Positions 1 to 44,516 of a stretch of 47,570 bases of DNA are shown here, one piece after another. The DNA is from an uncultured Oscillospiraceae bacterium. Its GTDB lineage: Bacteria; Bacillota; Clostridia; UMGS1883. The notes beneath the pieces were generated by a model. It saw only the letters and a program-made list of their open reading frames with translations. It did not search any database and was not told the DNA's origin. Positions within the stretch are counted from its first letter, which is position 1. Every line of letters begins with the position of its first letter. The stretch lies in assembly GCA_964442035.1 (NCBI GenBank), contig CAYTWZ010000003.1:1-47570 (forward strand), read 5' to 3'. Both the position numbers and the translations under genes were made by a program.

Positions 1-53
1 CCAACGACAACGCGGTTAACAGCCGCGGGCTCTACCGACTGAGCTATTGAGGA
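1..53 (-). tRNA. tRNA-Asn (anticodon GTT), 3' part cut off by the window edge
   Basis: The reverse complement reads TCCTCAA-TA-GCTC-AGTCGGTA-GAGC-C-CGCGG-CTGTTAA-CCGCG-TTGTC-GTTGG. This gives a 7-bp acceptor arm, a D arm, an anticodon stem-loop with GTT, and the start of the T arm. Confidence 0.85.
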
Positions 54-80: not shown

Positions 81-109
81 ATTATATCACATATAAAATA
101 GAAAATCAA
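81..109 (-). promoter_or_regulatory. sigma-70-type promoter for the tRNA-Asn gene
   Basis: The minus strand reads TTGATT, a 17-nt spacer, then TATAAT preceded by TGa (extended -10). It lies about 30 nt upstream of the tRNA 5' end. Confidence 0.55.
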
Positions 110-248
110 GTACTTTTTTTAAAATTTCTAAAAAATTTACTCCGCTTGACCATCAGAGTAAACGCAATCTCACACAAAGCGCAAACGCATTTGCTCTGAC
201 AGTCAGACAAGTAATACAAATATAAGGAAGCGCCGTCCGAGTATTAAA

Positions 249-338
249 ACAAGACCCGGAGACATCTTTCGTTTTTCGGTGAAAGGTCCCTTCCCTCACC
301 ATGGCGCCCCATGACGGGCTTTCAGCCCTTATTGAAAA
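249..338. repeat. Copy A of a structured repeat, immediately 3' of the UPF0210 gene. It is inverted relative to copy B at 1722-1796.
   Basis: Positions 268-338 match the reverse complement of 1722-1796, with about 8 mismatches and 1 indel over about 73 nt. Exact blocks are CTCACCATGGCGCCCCATGAC and GGCTTTCAGCCCTTA. Positions 250-275 are also a direct repeat of 1840-1865. Confidence 0.8.
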
Positions 339-342
339 AGCC

Positions 343-1701
343 TCAGTTTTTCAAACTGTGTATAGGTGCGGGGATACGTCCGCCGCGGGCGATAAATTCC
401 GCGCAGCTTCCGTTGTTTACCGGCATTATAGGCGCTGTACCCAAAAGGCCGCCAAACTCCACCTCATCTCCTACTTCCTTGCCGATGGCCGGAATAACAC
501 GGACGGCGGTGGTCTTTGTATTTACCATGCCTATGGCCATTTCATCCGCAATAATGCCGCTGATAGTGTCAGCACTTGTACTGCCGGGTACAGCGATCAT
601 GTCAAGGCCTACGCTGCACACACAGGTCATGGCCTCCAGCTTTTCGAGAGTAAGACAGCCGCTCTTAGCCGCAGCGATCATGCCCGCATCCTCGCTTACG
701 GGGATAAAGGCTCCGCTTAGACCGCCCACATAGCTACTGGCCATGACGCCGCCCTTCTTTACCGCATCGTTGAGCAACGCAAGGGCCGCTGTGGTTCCGT
801 GGGTGCCGCACTGCTCAAGGCCCATTTCCTCAAGGATATGAGCCACGCTGTCACCTCTGGCGGGAGTTGGAGCAAGGGACAGATCTACTATGCCGAAGGG
901 CACATTGAGCCGTCTGCTGGCCTCCTGAGCCACCATCTGCCCCATGCGTGTGATCTTAAAGGCAGTATTCTTAATTGTATCAGCCACAATGCCGAAGGGC
1001 TGACCCTTTACACGCTCAAGAGCGCACTTTACAACGCCGGGACCGCTTACGCCCACATTGATGACACATTCAGGCTCGCCGGTGCCATGGAAGGCTCCGG
1101 CCATGAATGGATTGTCCTCAACTGCGTTGGCAAACACGACCAACTTGGCGCAGCCGAAGCCGCCTTTGTCCGCTGTTGCGGCGGCTGTATCTTTGATTAT
1201 TCTGCCCATATGACGCACGGCATCCATATTTATTCCCGCCTTGGTTGTTGCCACATTTACGCTTGAACAAAGGAAATCCGTTGTGGCAAGAGCCTCAGGG
1301 ATAGTTTCGATAAATTCATAGTCGGCCTTGGTATATCCCTTGGCCACAAGGGCGCTGTAGCCACCAAGGAAGTTGACGCCGGTGGTCTTTGCCGCACGGT
1401 CAAGGGCCGCGGCAAATTCAAGGCTGTTGCCGCAGGCAGCGCTGATAAGAGACACGGGGGTGACAGATATACGCTTGTTGACAATGGGGATGCCATATTC
1501 CGCCTCGATCTGTTCGCCTGTGGAAACAAGATTTTCCGCCAAACGTGTGACCTTGTCGTAAACGCGCTGAGCGCCCTTTTTGCTGTCATCACTGATACAG
1601 TCAAAAAGTGAAATTCCCATAGTTATGGTGCGGACGTCAAGGTGTTCGTCCCGAATCATATTAAGGGTCTCGATTATTTCTAAGGGGTTAACGCTAAGCA
1701 T
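343..1701 (-). CDS. UPF0210 / PFL-family protein (DUF711)
   Basis: 452-aa ORF with ATG start and RBS GAAAGGAGGGGG. The N-terminus ([32 protein letters not shown]) and the size are typical of the UPF0210 family, which is normally paired with a small ACT protein. Confidence 0.85.
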
Positions 1702-1868
1702 TCGACCCCCTCCTTTCGATGTTTTTCATAAGGGCTGAAAGCCTGTCATGGGGCGCCATGGTGAGAGAAAGGAACTCCCACCGAGAAACGACAGGGTCGC
1801 CCGTCCCCGCGAAGCAGAAGCACCGACCGAGTCGGCAGGCAAGACCCGGGGGACAGCTTTCGTTTAAG
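1702..1868 (-). promoter_or_regulatory. Structured 167-nt intercistronic RNA region (contains repeat copy B) between the ACT gene and the UPF0210 gene
   Basis: On the minus strand there are several nested hairpins: CCGAC-TCG-GTCGG, GTCCCC/GGGGAC, AAACGA/TCGTTT, GGTGGGAG/CTCTCACC, CCATGG-CGCC-CCATG and GGCT-TTC-AGCC. The region ends at the RBS. The spacer is unusually long for an operon-internal gap. Confidence 0.6.
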
Positions 1869-2138
1869 CTATATGCGATGCATTGAGTTGAAAAGATCCT
1901 CACGCTGGATGGAGATGGCGACACCCATTTCCTCGCCCACAGTCTCCAGTCCCGACTTAAGTCCGGCGATATCAAGGGGACTTCCAGTGGTATCGATCAG
2001 CATTATCATTGTAAATATGTCCTGCATTATGGTCTGGCTTATATCCAGAATGTTGATATTATTGGAGTAAAGCAGGCCGCTGACTCTGGCGATTATGCCG
2101 GTCTTGTCCTTACCAACTACGGTTACAACTGCTTTCAT
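1869..2138 (-). CDS. ACT domain-containing protein (UPF0237 family)
   Basis: MKAVVTVVGKDKTGIIARVSGLLYSNNINILDISQ is the classic ACT fold start. The ATG at 2138 is preceded by GGGAGG. The longer ORF-track start at 2177 has no RBS. Confidence 0.85.
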   Translation of the reverse strand: MKAVVTVVGKDKTGIIARVSGLLYSNNINILDISQTIMQDIFTMIMLIDTTGSPLDIAGLKSGLETVGEEMGVAISIQREDLFNSMHRI

Positions 2139-2293
2139 CTTAATATTCCTCCCTTGGATTGGTTTAATAAGGCGCACAGCGCCGACATAAGGCTTTAACG
2201 GGAACCGACATTTCCCCGCCTAAAAACAAAAATGATGCCCAGCCCCTATTAAGGCCGGTAAATGCTTTCGTTTAATATATCATAGTATTATGT

Positions 2294-2322
2294 ATAATAT
2301 AATATTCCGGTAAAATAATCAA
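2294..2322 (-). promoter_or_regulatory. Putative promoter of the ACT-UPF0210 operon
   Basis: The minus strand reads TTGATT, a 17-nt spacer, then TATTAT. It is followed by a leader of about 150 nt that starts near TTAAACGAAAGC. Confidence 0.4.
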
Positions 2323-5780: not shown

Positions 5781-6305
5781 ATGAAAAAAAATGCCGGACA
5801 AACAAAGAATGACAAGGCTGTCAAGCAGAAGATACGTCAGGAAAGCGAACGCTTTTCAGACAAGGCTGTACTGCTTTCCACCTTTATAATATTATACGTA
5901 TTTCTTCTGATGCTTCTTCAGCGCATGAGCCGGTCCACCTTGACGGTGGTCGGGGCAAACGCCTTTACAAACATACTTTTCGGTGTTAGCATAGCCGGGG
6001 CCATGATATGCGCGGCTTGGGCAGCCTACAAGGAACGCAAGGGACTGCTCACTTACTGCGGAGTATTCGTATTCATACTTTGGAGCACTGTTGTAATCAA
6101 GTTCTGCGGTCACCCGGCTAGCAGTGCCTATGCTCTTATTTACGCCGGACTGGCAGTGGCATTCGTTTATGTACAGGTTTTCTACGGAATGCATGCGGCA
6201 GGCAAGGCAAATTCAAAGAAATCCAAGCTTATTTTGGGTATTGTGGGCGTAGTGATCATAGCCGCATTTGCCGCAGCGTCAATATTGCTGTATCTGAAAA
6301 AGTAA
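5781..6305 (+). CDS. Hypothetical small integral membrane protein
   Basis: 174 aa with RBS GGAGGA. A basic N-terminus is followed by about 4-5 hydrophobic helices. I recognise no family. Confidence 0.6.
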   Translation: MKKNAGQTKNDKAVKQKIRQESERFSDKAVLLSTFIILYVFLLMLLQRMSRSTLTVVGANAFTNILFGVSIAGAMICAAWAAYKERKGLLTYCGVFVFILWSTVVIKFCGHPASSAYALIYAGLAVAFVYVQVFYGMHAAGKANSKKSKLILGIVGVVIIAAFAAASILLYLKK

Positions 6306-8545: not shown

Positions 8546-8941
8546 TCAGACTCTTCTTCTCTTGGGAGGACGGCATCCATTGTGAGGAATGGGAGTTACG
8601 TCCTTGATAAGAGTTACTTCAAGTCCTGCTGCCTGAAGCGCGCGGATAGCGGCTTCACGGCCTGCGCCGGGTCCTTTGACATATACTTCTACAACCTTGA
8701 GGCCATGCTCCATAGCGGCCTTAGCTGCTGTTTCTGCTGCTGTCTGTGCCGCAAAGGGAGTGCTCTTCTTGCTGCCACGGAAGCCAAGTCCGCCTGCGCT
8801 TGCCCAGGAAAGAGCGTTTCCGTTTACATCAGTAATTGTAACGATGGTATTGTTGAATGTGCTGCGGATATGAGCTGCTCCGCGCTCGATATTCTTACGC
8901 TCTCTGCGCTTACGTACAGCTCTCTTAACTGTTTTTGCCAT
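8546..8941 (-). CDS. rpsK: 30S ribosomal protein S11
   Basis: 131 aa, contains [14 protein letters not shown] and a C-terminal [13 protein letters not shown]. Confidence 0.95.
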
Positions 8942-8954
8942 TGCCCTTTCCTCC

Positions 8955-9323
8955 TTACTTCTTCTTATTGGCTATTGTACGCTTGGGACCCTTGCGGGTT
9001 CTGGCGTTTGTCTTTGTTCTCTGGCCGCGGCAGGGAAGTCCCTTCCGGTGGCGGGTCCCGCGATAGGAACCAATTTCAATAAGGCGCTTGATATTAAGGG
9101 CCACATCTCTGCGAAGATCGCCTTCAACAACATAGCTCTTGTCGATAGCGTCACGGAGCTTCGCAACTTCTTCTTCTGTCAGATCCTTAACGCGGGTATC
9201 AGGGTTGACACCCGTTTCTGCAAGGATCTTATCTGCACTGCTTCTGCCTATGCCGTAAACGTAGGTGAGACCGATCTCAACACGTTTTTCTCTGGGCAAA
9301 TCAACACCGGCTATTCTTGCCAT
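8955..9323 (-). CDS. rpsM: 30S ribosomal protein S13
   Basis: [26 protein letters not shown], 122 aa. Confidence 0.95.
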
Positions 9324-22046: not shown

Positions 22047-22340
22047 ACATGTGCCTCCTAAAAATAATATAATATTTGTGACTCATGCGACACCTGTACA
22101 TGACGCCGGGTGTTTCACCCTTTGCCATATGAAAACCCGAAGCCTATGCTGCTCCGGGTACTACATGAAGATGGGCGTCAGGAGCGCAGACCGCTCCTTT
22201 ATCGAATCTTTTCGACAAACGCAAAGCTTTATCATGTTGTACAGTGACTGCCGCCCGGCTTCATGAGCCGGACATTCTCCACGGAAAAACCCGGCCTGTT
22301 GCCGGCAACCTCCCGCTTCATCGTATGTCATGTCACAGCT
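22047..22340 (-). promoter_or_regulatory. Long structured 5' leader of the S10 operon (candidate ribosomal-protein autoregulatory leader or attenuator)
   Basis: About 290 nt lie between the predicted -10 and the rpsJ ATG, with no minus-strand ORF. Hairpins include CCGGCT-CATGA-AGCCGG, GGAGCG-GTCTG-CGCTCC, GGGTG-AAA-CACCC, CCCGGAGC/GCTTCGGG and the long-range pair TGACGCC/GGCGTCA. An early CCGGC-AACAG-GCCGG hairpin followed by GTTTTT lies at 22285-22306. Confidence 0.5.
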
Positions 22341-23823: not shown

Positions 23824-23985
23824 AAAAAACAGGAGATACCCTGATGCGGATATCTCCGGAAAAAATCAAATCTGACTTCCTACGGCGGCATTATCCGCGT
23901 CAGGTAAAAGGGTCGAAGCTATTGGCGATGCACATACGGCATGCTTTGATCGCTTCCTCTCAGCCTGCAACACAAGCTCCCCCGT
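23824..23985 (-). promoter_or_regulatory. TPP (THI-box) riboswitch with terminator expression platform
   Basis: The minus strand reads GGGGAGC...GGCTGAGAGG...ACCCTTTTACCTGACGCGGATAATGCCGCCGTAGGAAG, which matches the conserved CUGAGA and ACCUGA...GGAUAAUGCC...GGGAA cores. The terminator GGAGATA-N13-TATCTCC plus TGTTTTTT follows at 23824-23858. Confidence 0.9.
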
Positions 23986-23992
23986 TTTTTTC

Positions 23993-24021
23993 ATTTTATC
24001 ACATTTTTTTGCCGTTGTCAA
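23993..24021 (-). promoter_or_regulatory. thiC promoter
   Basis: The minus strand reads TTGACA, a 17-nt spacer, then TAAAAT, just upstream of the riboswitch. Confidence 0.6.
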
Positions 24022-25125: not shown

Positions 25126-25607
25126 GGCTCGTACTCCTTTACCATTTCTGCCCGAAGATAACCCCGGTCCGTATCAATAGACCGGACGTAAAAGCCCCGG
25201 GAGTAGTAAAACCGCATGATCTCAGCGACCTTGCTGGCAGTGTGCAGCCGCACCTCTCTGACGCCCATCCGCCTGACCGCAATATCCGCGGCATTGGCAA
25301 TTGCCTTGCCGATGCCGTTGTTTCGGTAGGTTCGGCTTACGCCGAAGCGACTCAGATAGGCGGTCTTGGTTTCGATATCAATATCCAGCCGCAGGCTGCC
25401 CACCACTATGCCGTCCATGTATGCGACAATGACGGTTTTGCGGTCAATATCGCGCCGCACATCCTCAACTGTCTCATGGAGGGCTTCAATATCACTTATC
25501 TCCGCCATGGCACAGTACTTGCCGAATGCTTCTCGAGTGATCTCTTGTATGGCACGGGCATCCTCACGGGTGGCCAGCCGTATCTCAAAAAAGCCATGCT
25601 CATTCAT
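25122..25607 (-). CDS. GNAT family N-acetyltransferase
   Basis: 161 aa with acetyl-CoA motif RNNGIGKAI. Located 4 nt downstream of the argF stop. Confidence 0.8.
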   Translation of the reverse strand: MNEHGFFEIRLATREDARAIQEITREAFGKYCAMAEISDIEALHETVEDVRRDIDRKTVIVAYMDGIVVGSLRLDIDIETKTAYLSRFGVSRTYRNNGIGKAIANAADIAVRRMGVREVRLHTASKVAEIMRFYYSRGFYVRSIDTDRGYLRAEMVKEYEP

Positions 25608-25611
25608 AGGC

Positions 25612-26538
25612 TCAGTCTTTCATAAGCAGGGCCATGACCGCCTTCTGTGCGTGAAGCCGGTTTTCCGCCTCGTCAAAAACAACGCTGTGGGGTCCGTCAA
25701 TGATCTCCTCCGTCACCTCGTTGCCTCTGTAGGCGGGCAGGCAGTGGAGGAATATGGCGTTTTCGTCAGCGTGGGAGAACAGCTCGCCGTTCACCTGATA
25801 GCCCTGAAATTCCTTGATGCGCTGGGCTTTTTCGGCCTCCTGACCCATGGAGCACCAGGTGTCCGTGCAGACAACGTCCGCTCCGCTGACCGCTTCAACA
25901 GGGTCATTTGTAATAATGACCTTAACACCAGTAGCCCTGGCGTCATTTTTAGCGTTTTCAACTACCTGAGCGTCGCACTCATAGCCCTTGGGCGTAGCGA
26001 TGGCCACATCAAGGCCAAGCTTGGCACAGCCGTAAAGATAGGAATGCGCCATATTGTTTCCGTCGCCGATATATGCCAGCTTGAGTCCCTGAAGGCGGCC
26101 CTTTTTCTCGGCTACGGTCTGCATATCCGCCAGCACCTGGCAGGGATGCACAAGGTCTGTCAGTCCGTTGATGACCGGAACACTGCCGTACCTTGCCATA
26201 TCCTCTACGTCCGACTGCTTGAAGGTACGTATCATTATACCGTCAACGTAGCGGCTCATTACATTGGCTGTGTCATAAATGCTTTCCCCCCTGCCAAGCT
26301 GGATATCGTTGGCGGAGAGGAATATTCCCTGTCCGCCCAATTGGTAAATACCTGTCTGGAAAGAGACACGGGTGCGGGTAGAGGACTTGGAAAAGATCAT
26401 GCCAAGGGTCTTGCCGGCCAGAATATGATGCTTGATTCCGGCCTTAAGCTCCTTTTTAAGTTTGTCAGCCAGAGTAAGGGTTTCCATAATATCGTCGGTA
26501 CTCCAGTCGTGGAGCGTCAGTAAATGTTTTTGATTCAT
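25612..26538 (-). CDS. argF: Ornithine carbamoyltransferase
   Basis: 308 aa with the STRTRVSF carbamoyl-phosphate motif, HPCQ and HCLP motifs. Confidence 0.93.
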   Translation of the reverse strand: MNQKHLLTLHDWSTDDIMETLTLADKLKKELKAGIKHHILAGKTLGMIFSKSSTRTRVSFQTGIYQLGGQGIFLSANDIQLGRGESIYDTANVMSRYVDGIMIRTFKQSDVEDMARYGSVPVINGLTDLVHPCQVLADMQTVAEKKGRLQGLKLAYIGDGNNMAHSYLYGCAKLGLDVAIATPKGYECDAQVVENAKNDARATGVKVIITNDPVEAVSGADVVCTDTWCSMGQEAEKAQRIKEFQGYQVNGELFSHADENAIFLHCLPAYRGNEVTEEIIDGPHSVVFDEAENRLHAQKAVMALLMKD

Positions 26539-44423: not shown

Positions 44424-44454
44424 CCGAGCGGATCGACTGTTTAAAGCTTAACCA

Positions 44455-44497
44455 ATAAAAAAAGAAATGGTCTCAAGCAGGCCATTTCTTTTTTTAA
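44455..44497. terminator. Bidirectional intrinsic terminator between the convergent ridA and glgP genes
   Basis: 10-bp stem AAAGAAATGG/CCATTTCTTT, flanked by an A-run on the left and a T-run on the right. Confidence 0.75.
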
Positions 44498-44516
44498 TAA
44501 TTTTACTTTAATTTTA

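What the first reader, a model, noticed from the sequence alone, without database searches (positions are those of the whole stretch)
249..2277. An inverted, structured repeat of about 73 nt brackets the entire UPF0210 gene, inside an unusually structured ACT-UPF0210 operon
- **Inverted repeat.** Positions 268-338, just 3' of the UPF0210 stop, are the reverse complement of 1722-1796, just 5' of its RBS. There are about 8 mismatches and 1 indel, with exact blocks of 21 and 15 nt. The gene is therefore flanked by inverted repeats.
- **Direct module.** A 26-nt module on the minus strand (AAACGAAAG-N-TGTC(C/T)CC-GGGTCTTG) occurs in direct orientation at 250-275 and 1840-1865. A weaker third copy lies in the operon leader at 2249-2275 and shares GCTTTCGTTTAA.
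- **Dense structure.** The 167-nt spacer between the ACT gene and the UPF0210 gene is densely hairpinned.
- **RNA-level signal.** Both inverted copies fold better in the transcribed (minus) sense, as GGTGAGGG/CTTTCACC and GGTGGGAG/CTCTCACC. The differences are G-U or compensatory pairs on that strand and A-C mismatches on the other. This points to RNA-level selection rather than a passive DNA palindrome.

Three non-exclusive readings:
1. An undescribed cis-regulatory RNA (riboswitch-like leader) controlling UPF0210, whose ligand and function are unknown.
2. A 5'-3' mRNA clamp of about 70 bp that sequesters the region next to the RBS, or creates an RNase III site.
3. Recombination arms allowing inversion of the 1.4-kb gene. 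No recombinase is visible in this window.
Basis: seen in the sequence. Interest (0 to 1): 0.7.

Follow-up and report, generated by a model that had tools for sequence, protein, structure and literature searches.

The report
Private hairpin repeat colonising one operon
The inverted repeat around the UPF0210 gene is real, but it is two of three copies of a small hairpin-rich repeat inserted into the untranslated parts of this one operon in this one lineage, so it looks like a new small intergenic repeat and not a conserved riboswitch or a gene-inversion switch.

Summary
**Observation.** The 73-nt inverted repeat (266-338 / 1722-1794) and the 49-nt direct module (227-274 / 1817-1865) are confirmed.

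**Third copy.** A covariance model built only from the other two copies finds it at 27.8 bits, against 9.4 for the next hit in the window.

**Lineage-specific.** Nine orthologous loci (88-93% protein identity) have 12-27-nt ACT-UPF0210 spacers, and the six whose leaders were aligned have short ones. The spacer and leader copies are therefore insertions.

**No other copies.**
- Rfam has no match.
- There is no other copy in the 47.5-kb window.
- The searches run on species-representative genomes, JGI metagenomes, viral contigs, phages, plasmids and two billion-protein collections found nothing.
- No recombinase lies in the window.
- An independent assembly of the same strain shows the same orientation.

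**Structure.** The leader copy keeps hairpins H1 and H1b through five compensatory pair changes.

**Best reading (about 0.5).** A new small structured intergenic repeat, REP/REPIN- or MITE-like or locally copied, carried on the mRNA. The gene-bracketing inversion is a by-product.

**Untested.** An operon-private RNA device remains possible. Genome-wide copy number could not be tested.

The parts
262..344 (+). 3' copy (T) of the repeat core, made of a U-rich head and hairpins H2, H1b and H1. On the mRNA it is read as the complement.
   Evidence: Covariance model R1 scores it at 100 bits. Inverted repeat I1. Alignments.
205..280 (-). H0 hairpin region of the 3' copy. It includes the 49-nt direct module 227-274 (AAACGAAAG-AUGUCUCCGGGUCUUG...CUCGGACGGCGCUUC), followed by a U-rich stretch.
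   Evidence: Direct repeat with 1817-1865. Fold.
343..1701 (-). UPF0210 / DUF711 coding sequence, 452 aa.
   Evidence: Pfam PF05167, E = 2e-195. ORF list.
1713..1718 (-). Right copy of the 6-nt direct repeat CGAAAG flanking the spacer insertion, next to the UPF0210 ribosome-binding site (GGAGG).
   Evidence: Read from the sequence. Insertion limits from alignment A2 with six relatives.
1716..1800 (-). Spacer copy (S) of the repeat core, in the sense orientation.
   Evidence: Covariance model R1 scores it at 109 bits. Inverted repeat I1.
1795..1868 (-). H0 imperfect palindrome of the spacer. It comprises the direct module 1817-1865 and a 22-nt second arm (1795-1816). The spacer therefore holds two partial units head to head.
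   Evidence: Weak nhmmer reverse-strand match at 1817-1866.
1857..1862 (-). Left copy of the 6-nt direct repeat CGAAAG flanking the spacer insertion.
   Evidence: Read from the sequence. Alignment A2.
1869..2138 (-). ACT-domain protein coding sequence, 89 aa.
   Evidence: Pfam ACT_6 and ACT. Same length as in relatives. Exact protein found on contig L026.
2155..2238 (-). Leader copy (L) of the repeat core. It is diverged, in the same orientation as the spacer copy, and keeps H1 and H1b through compensatory changes.
   Evidence: Covariance model R1 scores it at 27.8 bits, E about 1e-5. Pairwise statistics. Pair counts.
2218..2280 (-). H0 of the leader: AAACGAAAG, a GC-rich hairpin, then a U-run. 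It resembles an intrinsic terminator and lies between the promoter and the ACT ribosome-binding site.
   Evidence: Terminator-like site 2258->2239. Fold energy -17.7 kcal/mol, z = -3.33, reached by 0 of 200 shuffles.
2162..2169 (-). Right copy of the 8-nt direct repeat TATTAAAC flanking the leader insertion.
   Evidence: Read from the sequence. Alignment A1 with six relatives.
2270..2277 (-). Left copy of the 8-nt direct repeat TATTAAAC flanking the leader insertion.
   Evidence: Read from the sequence. Alignment A1.
2294..2322 (-). Sigma-70-type promoter of the operon (TTGATT, 17 nt, TATTAT), conserved in relatives.
   Evidence: Promoter scan. Conserved columns in alignment A1. BLAST matches to relatives.

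Best explanation
**What it is.** A small non-coding, hairpin-rich repeat unit. Its core is about 85 nt: a U-rich head (CUUUCGUUUUUCGG), three hairpins (H2, H1b, H1) and an A-rich tail (CUUAUUGAAAAA). The core is preceded by a GC-rich palindrome, H0, bracketed by AAACGAAAG and CUKUCGUUU.

**How it got there.** It has been copied at the DNA level into all three untranslated parts of one ACT-UPF0210 operon in one lineage of uncultured Clostridia:
- the leader, in sense orientation;
- the intercistronic spacer, in sense orientation, with a second partial unit head to head;
- just after the UPF0210 stop, inverted.

It is best classed as a new family of small structured intergenic repeats of the REP/REPIN or MITE kind. 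The copies spread either by a trans-acting transposase encoded elsewhere or by local template-switch copying. The 'inverted repeat bracketing the gene' is a by-product of two insertions in opposite orientation.

**Shown here.**
- The spacer and leader copies are insertions relative to the orthologous loci examined.
- There are three related copies.
- The hairpins are maintained.
- No known RNA family matches, and no recombinase lies in the window.

**Inferred, not shown.**
- The mechanism of spread.
- That the copies ride passively on the mRNA.
- That their hairpins may attenuate transcription (leader H0), slow exonucleases, or offer an RNase III substrate through pairing of the spacer and 3' copies.
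For: 1. **Insertion.** Nine orthologous loci (L001, L003, L016-L018, L022-L025; 88-93% protein identity) have 12-27-nt ACT-UPF0210 spacers, against 167 nt here. Alignments with six of them show a short leader and place the extra DNA cleanly between the stop codon and the ribosome-binding site, and between the conserved promoter and the ribosome-binding site.
2. **Three related copies.**
3. **Orientation and location.** Both orientations occur, the copies lie only in non-coding DNA, and the spacer holds two partial units head to head. This is as in REP/BIME/REPIN clusters (PMC3116915).
4. **Flanking direct repeats.** TATTAAAC (8 nt) flanks the leader insertion and CGAAAG (6 nt) the spacer insertion.
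5. **Hairpins kept by compensatory change.** Five pairs change on both sides. This is expected if a transposase recognises the hairpins or if the RNA or DNA structure matters.
6. **Age of the leader copy.** It differs from the 3' copy in about 18% of aligned positions and by many indels, yet the nearest relative (81% nucleotide identity) lacks all three copies. This fits insertion from an already diverse family better than recent local copying.
7. **Not an artefact.** The same arrangement appears with 1 mismatch in 1625 nt in an independent Logan assembly.
8. **No alternative identity.** There is no Rfam match, and none of the 30 ORFs scanned matches a recombinase or transposase family.
Against: - No copy lies outside this operon in the other 45 kb of the window, even with the covariance model run without filters. 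Three copies within 2.3 kb and none elsewhere is not what a uniformly dispersed repeat gives.
- No copy turned up in the searches run elsewhere. These were exact-core scans of 185,579 species-representative genomes, JGI metagenomes and viral contigs, BLAST of the 3' copy against plasmids and of the spacer copy against phages, and six-frame or ORF translations against 5.8 and 1.8 billion proteins. The exact-match scans would miss diverged copies.
- No terminal inverted repeats of the MITE type are evident.
- The two flanking direct repeats differ in length (8 and 6 nt). The right-hand TATTAAAC also aligns with the element's own tail, so the target-site-duplication reading is uncertain.
- Genome-wide copy number could not be measured, because the rest of this genome is not available.
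Confidence: 0.5

Rival explanations
1. An operon-private cis-regulatory RNA system that arose recently in this lineage. The hairpins are selected at the RNA level. The leader copy acts as a conditional attenuator. The copies next to the UPF0210 ribosome-binding site and in the 3' UTR set translation or stability, possibly through a shared RNA-binding factor.
For: - All three copies lie in the untranslated parts of one operon and nowhere else in 47.5 kb.
- Hairpins H1 and H1b are kept by five compensatory pair changes.
- All three copies fold 1.3-3.9 kcal/mol better on the transcribed strand.
- The leader H0 is terminator-like, with z = -3.33.
Against: - It is absent from every orthologous locus examined and has no Rfam match.
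- The 3' copy is inverted, so its RNA is the complement of the other two. A sequence-specific RNA-binding factor would not see the same motif.
- Compensatory changes in palindromic hairpins do not tell RNA from DNA, or one strand from the other.
- The fold z-scores of the copies are unremarkable, -0.8 to -1.6.
- The insert does not change ribosome-binding-site accessibility: the probability that it is unpaired is 0.24 with the insert, 0.21 without it, and 0.12 +/- 0.10 with the insert shuffled.
Confidence: 0.2
2. A long-range mRNA clamp. The spacer copy and the 3' copy pair across 1.4 kb into a duplex of about 70 bp. The duplex is cut by RNase III or circularises the UPF0210 cistron, as the processing stalks of rRNA precursors do.
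For: - The cofold energy is -120.5 kcal/mol, against -22.1 and -22.4 for the arms alone.
- With flanks, the cofold is -169 against -109.
- Four of the eight mismatches are G-U pairs in the sense duplex.
- Hairpin RNA from Correia elements is a known RNase III substrate (PMC2649163).
Against: - There is no conservation to test it against.
- The other four mismatches and the bulge remain, and the antisense duplex is nearly as stable at -115 kcal/mol.
- The substitutions in the leader copy preserve local hairpins, not pairing with the 3' copy.
- Ribosomes translating the 1.36-kb ORF and co-transcriptional folding favour local hairpins (inference).
Confidence: 0.1
3. Purely local origin with no mobile element. 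Replication template switching at microhomologies (AAACGAAAG, CGAAAG, TATTAAAC) copied a 3'-end structured segment into the spacer and leader. The copies are neutral passengers.
For: - The spacer can be written as a direct copy of 274->227 followed by an inverted copy of about 250-338. A fold-back template switch would give exactly this.
- Short direct repeats sit at the junctions.
- All copies lie within 2.3 kb, and none was found elsewhere.
Against: - The leader copy is much more diverged than the other two, yet the nearest relative lacks all three.
- Neutral passengers would not be expected to keep hairpins by compensatory change, although correction within a palindrome could mimic this.
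Confidence: 0.15
4. An invertible DNA switch. Recombination between the two arms flips the 1.4-kb UPF0210 gene, together with its ribosome-binding site, to turn it off.
For: Inverted arms flank the whole gene and its ribosome-binding site.
Against: - None of the 30 ORFs scanned matches a recombinase or transposase family; 27 match housekeeping families.
- The arms are only 86% identical, and the longest perfect block is 21 nt.
- An independent assembly of the same strain crosses the spacer arm into the gene in the same orientation.
- A third copy in the leader is not explained.
Confidence: 0.03

Closest known systems
REP / BIME / REPIN elements (repetitive extragenic palindromes mobilised by RAYT transposases; PMC3116915, PMC3337134)
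   Same: - Short, non-coding, hairpin-forming units.
- Strictly extragenic, often between cistrons and at operon 3' ends.
- Occur in alternating orientation and as head-to-head doublets, as the spacer does here.
- Co-transcribed with the flanking genes.
   Different: - REPs are usually 20-40 nt and present in tens to hundreds of copies, with a RAYT gene in the genome.
- The core here is about 85 nt with three hairpins.
- Only three copies are seen, all in one operon.
- Copy number and the presence of a RAYT could not be checked.
- REPINs are described mainly in Proteobacteria, whereas the named protein relatives here are Clostridia MAGs.
Bacterial MITEs such as Correia/CREE (Neisseria), ERIC, and RUP, BOX and SPRITE (pneumococcus) (PMC10969869, PMC2649163, PMC3049150, PMC2229807)
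   Same: - About 100-150 nt, non-coding and structured.
- Inserted between genes and inside operons.
- Present or absent between close relatives.
- Short flanking direct repeats.
- The transcribed hairpins can act as RNase III substrates, terminators or stabilisers.
   Different: - No terminal inverted repeats are evident.
- The flanking repeats are 8 and 6 nt, not one fixed length.
- There is no sequence similarity to any searchable element.
- Dispersal has not been shown.
RNase III processing stalks that bracket a gene product (rRNA precursors)
   Same: Complementary segments 5' and 3' of a transcribed unit could form a long duplex. The predicted energy here is -120 kcal/mol.
   Different: - rRNA stalks are conserved across relatives.
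- This pair is absent from every orthologous locus examined.
- It flanks a translated ORF.
Riboswitches and ribosomal-protein-type leaders (Rfam cis-regulatory families)
   Same: Structured RNA in a 5' leader and just upstream of a ribosome-binding site.
   Different: - No Rfam match.
- Not conserved upstream of orthologous genes.
- Repeated three times, once inverted.

Membership tests
Known cis-regulatory RNA family (Rfam) | Scores against a curated covariance model | tested here: not met
   No match at gathering score in the window. No relevant match at E <= 10 in 1-2600.
Riboswitch-like conserved leader of UPF0210 | Conserved upstream of orthologous genes in related genomes | tested here: not met
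   Nine orthologous loci have 12-27-nt spacers. Neither the covariance model nor BLAST finds a hit in them.
Structured RNA or DNA element (general) | Base pairs kept through compensatory changes | tested here: inconclusive
   Five pairs change on both sides among the three paralogous copies, against 1.7 +/- 1.1 in shuffles, reached by 1 of 500. There are only three sequences, and the hairpins are palindromic, so neither the strand nor RNA versus DNA can be decided.
MITE | Small non-coding insertion, present or absent between close relatives | tested here: met
   About 100-155-nt inserts are absent from the relatives. No ORF or protein match.
MITE | Terminal inverted repeats | tested here: not met
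   The ends of the leader and spacer inserts show no convincing inverted termini. There is only a subterminal GAAAGC-TGTC / GACAGGCTTTC similarity in the spacer (sequence reading).
MITE | Target-site duplication of fixed length | tested here: inconclusive
   TATTAAAC (8 nt) flanks the leader insert and CGAAAG (6 nt) the spacer insert. The lengths differ, and the right TATTAAAC overlaps the element's own tail.
MITE / REP / REPIN | Many dispersed copies in the same genome | not testable with these tools
   Only 47.5 kb of this genome is available, plus a 1.6-kb contig of the same strain. There are three copies in one operon and none elsewhere in the window. The species was not detected in the exact-core scans of the genome or metagenome collections.
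REP / REPIN | Extragenic palindromic units in alternating orientation or doublets | tested here: met
   The spacer and 3' copies are inverted relative to each other. The spacer holds a direct H0 module followed by an inverted core.
REP / REPIN | Cognate RAYT transposase in the genome | not testable with these tools
   None in the window. The rest of the genome is unavailable.
Invertible DNA switch (inverton) | Inverted repeats flanking the invertible segment | tested here: met
   Arms 266-338 and 1722-1794.
Invertible DNA switch (inverton) | Site-specific recombinase encoded nearby | tested here: not met
   Pfam scans of 30 ORFs across the window: 27 match housekeeping families, 3 have no match, and none matches a recombinase or transposase family.
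Invertible DNA switch (inverton) | Both orientations observed in sequence data | tested here: inconclusive
   One independent assembly (L026) shows the same orientation. Raw reads were not available.

The most novel reading that the evidence does not exclude
The three copies form a newly evolved regulatory RNA device private to this operon.
- The inverted 3'-UTR copy is antisense to the intercistronic and leader copies.
- It pairs with them, in cis or as a processed 3'-UTR fragment in trans.
- This pairing gates termination at the leader hairpin, or triggers RNase III cleavage next to the UPF0210 ribosome-binding site.

If so, the locus would show a selfish repeat being turned into a regulator of an operon whose function is unknown.
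Probability: 0.12. Interest if true: 0.65.

Novelty: new member of a known kind. Interest (0 to 1): 0.35.

Why it matters
- **As classified here.** It adds a previously unseen family of small structured intergenic repeats from an uncultured Clostridia lineage. It also gives a clean before-and-after comparison of repeat insertion into the leader and spacer of a housekeeping operon, with empty sites in sister species.
- **As a caution.** It shows that a gene bracketed by a structured inverted repeat can look like a riboswitch or an inversion switch and yet be a lineage-specific insertion.
- **If copy number is truly three.** It would be a rare observable case of a new cis-regulatory RNA architecture arising on an operon (ACT-UPF0210) whose function is still unknown.

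Tried and rejected
- **Rfam.** Gathering and E <= 10 thresholds gave nothing relevant.
- **Exact-core DNA scans.**
  - Genome collection: 12 single hits, all in Myxococcales, Anaerolineae, Betaproteobacteria, Gemmatimonadota and similar lineages, none in Firmicutes, with similarity limited to the seed.
  - JGI metagenomes: 3 hits on 60-74% GC contigs, again limited to the seed.
  - Viral contigs: 0, 7 and 25 hits for three patterns. None is significant with the covariance model.
- **BLAST.** The 3' copy against plasmids and the spacer copy against phages gave no match.
- **Protein-level trick.** I searched for spurious ORFs laid over other copies of the element.
  - Six-frame translations against 5.8 billion proteins gave nothing at E <= 10.
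  - The 55-aa spacer ORF against 1.84 billion cluster representatives gave nothing.
- **Ribosome-binding-site sequestration by the insert.**
  - The minimum-energy fold of the spacer alone suggested it.
  - With more context, the probability that the site is unpaired is 0.24 with the insert, 0.21 without it and 0.12 +/- 0.10 with the insert shuffled. Rejected.
- **Long DUF711 hits.** The 575-597-aa hits are not N-terminal extensions through a spacer. The two compared (P0006, P0008) are only 72-73% identical to the window protein and carry an internal partial duplication.
- **nhmmer.** Single-sequence nhmmer failed to find the leader copy. The covariance model and shuffle tests were needed.
- **Literature.** A search on DUF711, UPF0210 and UPF0237 found nothing on regulation.
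- **Exact protein look-up.** The window's own UPF0210 protein is not on record. The ACT protein did give a contig of the same strain.
Full report
**1. The locus**

All genes below lie on the minus strand.

| Feature | Coordinates | Evidence |
|---|---|---|
| TPR protein | 4147-3290 | |
| DUF218 protein | 3339-2545 | |
| Promoter TTGATT-17-TATTAT | 2322-2294 | |
| ACT-domain protein, 89 aa | 2138-1869 | |
| Spacer, 167 nt | 1868-1702 | |
| UPF0210/DUF711, 452 aa | 1701-343 | PF05167, E = 2e-195 |
| Partial tRNA with its own promoter | 53-1; promoter 109-81 | |

The other ORFs scanned across the window match housekeeping families: AsnRS-type synthetase, rpoA, ribosomal proteins L17 and S4, SecY, ThiC, a cell-division and cell-wall gene cluster, ArgR, RecN and glycogen phosphorylase. 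Three of the 30 ORFs scanned have no Pfam match. None matches a recombinase or transposase family.

**2.

- **Inverted repeat.** Arms 266-338 and 1722-1794 are 73 nt and 86% complementary. They form the only long inverted repeat of this kind in 47.5 kb. A gapped alignment has 8 mismatches and 1 indel, and scores 101 against a null of 15 +/- 2.
- **Core blocks.** The 21-nt and 16-nt exact blocks occur only at these two places, with about 0 expected.
- **Direct module.** It extends to 49 nt, 1865->1817 against 274->227, scoring 41 against a null maximum of 24.
- **AAACGAAAG.** This 9-mer occurs four times in the window against 0.45 expected. Three occurrences lie in this operon's non-coding DNA on the transcribed strand.

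**3. A third copy**

The leader does more than share 12 nt with the spacer.
- Window 2237->2163 aligns with 263-336 (+). Of 67 aligned pairs, 55 are identical, and there are 15 gap columns.
- The score of 47 was reached by none of 1000 block shuffles (maximum 42) and none of 1494 real window segments (maximum 38).
- As an independent test, I built a covariance model from the spacer and 3' copies only. I ran it over the whole window without filters.
- It returned the two training copies, then the leader at 2238->2155 with 27.8 bits (E about 1e-5, full model length). The next hit scored 9.4 bits.
- Single-sequence nhmmer misses the leader copy, so the evidence is good but not overwhelming.

The unit, read in the orientation of the leader and spacer copies, has two parts:
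- **H0 module:** AAACGAAAG, a GC-rich palindrome of variable sequence, then CUKUCGUUU.
- **Core:** a U-rich head, H2 (GGUGRGRG/CYYUCACC), H1b (CAUGG/CCAUG), H1 (GGGCU/AGCCC) and the tail CUUAUUGAAAAA.

The 3' copy is inverted. The spacer carries a direct copy of the 3' copy's H0 followed by an inverted core. It therefore holds two partial units head to head. This explains how one locus can show a direct module and an inverted module at once.

**4. The copies are lineage-specific insertions**

- The closest UPF0210 homologues are 88-93% identical.
- I fetched nine orthologous loci. All have ACT-UPF0210 spacers of 12-27 nt.
- L016 shares the TPR-DUF218-ACT-DUF711 gene order and is 81% identical in nucleotide sequence over the UPF0210 gene.
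- Alignments place about 155 extra nt between the ACT stop and the UPF0210 ribosome-binding site.
- They place about 100 extra nt between the conserved promoter and the ACT ribosome-binding site.
- The leader insert is flanked by TATTAAAC (2270-2277 and 2162-2169). The spacer insert is flanked by CGAAAG (1857-1862 and 1713-1718).
- Neither BLAST nor the covariance model finds any trace of the unit in the relatives.
- The 3' flank cannot be compared, because gene order differs there. Relatives carry a Na+/H+ exchanger or a hydrolase, and the window carries a tRNA.

**5. It is not an assembly artefact**

- The exact ACT protein is on a 1625-nt Logan contig from SRR10165008.
- That contig equals window 2371->747 with one mismatch.
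- It includes the leader and spacer copies and reads on into UPF0210 in the same orientation.

**6. Search for further copies**

| Search | Result |
|---|---|
| Rfam | none |
| Rest of the window (repeat finder, BLAST, nhmmer, covariance model) | none |
| Exact-core scan of 185,579 species genomes | 12 single hits outside Firmicutes, seed-length only |
| Exact-core scan of JGI metagenomes | 3 seed-length hits on high-GC contigs |
| Viral contigs, three patterns | nothing significant |
| 3' copy against plasmids, spacer copy against phages | none |
| Six-frame and ORF translations against 5.8 and 1.84 billion proteins | none |

The exact-match scans would miss diverged copies. The rest of this organism's genome is not available. 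Genome-wide copy number, the key discriminator, stays unknown.

**7. Structure**

- On the three-copy alignment, 85% of cells pair in H2, H1b and H1.
- Five pairs change on both sides in the leader copy. In H1, GGGCU/AGCCC becomes GGCGC/GCGCC. In H1b, GG/CC becomes AA/UU.
- Shuffles give 1.7 +/- 1.1 such pairs, and 1 of 500 reaches five. Versions with slid partners give 0-2.
- The hairpins therefore appear to be maintained. With three sequences and palindromic stems, the data cannot say whether the selected form is RNA, single-stranded DNA or a cruciform.
In the spacer copy, the outermost H1 pair goes the other way.
- Fold z-scores are modest at -0.8 to -2.0.
- The exception is the leader H0, with z = -3.33. 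It also matches the terminator-like consensus.
- The duplex between the spacer and 3' copies is very stable on paper, -120.5 kcal/mol against about -22 per arm.
- The insert does not specifically occlude the UPF0210 ribosome-binding site.

**8. Interpretation**

- **Best reading (about 0.5).**
  - It is a new small structured intergenic repeat of the REP/REPIN or MITE kind, or a product of local copying.
  - It colonised the non-coding parts of this operon in one lineage.
  - The gene-bracketing inverted pair is a by-product of insertion orientation.
  - Known repeats of these kinds sit between cistrons, occur in both orientations and as doublets, and differ between close relatives. When transcribed they can act as terminators, stabilisers or RNase III substrates (PMC3116915, PMC10969869, PMC2649163, PMC3049150).
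- **Points against this reading.** All three copies sit in one operon, there are no MITE-type terminal inverted repeats, and the flanking repeats differ in length.
- **Rivals.**
  - An operon-private RNA device, 0.2.
  - Neutral local template switching, 0.15.
  - An mRNA clamp or RNase III site, 0.1.
  - An invertible switch, 0.03.

**9. Verdict**

- **Observation:** confirmed and extended.
The clamp is untested. Inversion is unlikely.
- **Novelty:** a new sequence family of a known kind.
- **Interest:** moderate to low at 0.35. It would rise to about 0.65 if the genome proves to hold only these three copies and they regulate the operon.

Noticed in passing
window 23860-23993 (-): TPP riboswitch (RF00059, 59.3 bits), directly upstream of a ThiC gene at 23787-22471 (-).
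   Followed up: partly
window 22248-22330 (-): S10-Clostridia ribosomal protein leader (RF03136, 54.4 bits), at the head of the ribosomal protein operon.
   Followed up: no
window 1-53 (-) and 81-109 (-): Partial tRNA cut by the window edge. The anticodon loop reads CUGUUAA, so it is probably tRNA-Asn (GUU). It has a near-consensus extended -10 promoter (TTGATT-17-TATAAT with TG). No canonical intrinsic terminator separates it from UPF0210, so the operon may read through into the tRNA.
   Followed up: partly
window 44441-44511: A 33-nt-arm AT-rich palindrome with a 5-nt loop, between the ends of two ORFs. It may be a bidirectional terminator.
   Followed up: no
L002 3001-4728 (proteins P0006, P0008 and other 511-597-aa hits): DUF711 proteins from a higher-GC organism (72-73% identity). 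They carry an internal tandem duplication of roughly 125 residues; query residues about 272-395 appear twice. This is either a real duplication or an assembly artefact.
   Followed up: partly
L002 2754-3000: That organism also has a long (247-nt) hairpin-rich ACT-DUF711 spacer of unrelated sequence. It includes an A-tract, hairpin and T-tract terminator-like site. This intercistronic site may be repeatedly colonised or remodelled.
   Followed up: no
L016 4360-4529 and L022 1553-1722: The closest syntenic relative has a 170-nt GC-rich, hairpin-laden region after the DUF711 stop (CGCCGGGGGGACCCGAGCGGTTCCCCCGACG ... GCTTTCGCTTACGAAAG). It is not detectably related to the window's unit by BLAST or the covariance model.
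   Followed up: partly
window 5781-6305 (+), 8582-9082 (+), 25366-26523 (+): ORFs of 174, 166 and 385 aa with no Pfam match. They lie opposite to the surrounding gene direction, so at least some are probably spurious.
   Followed up: no
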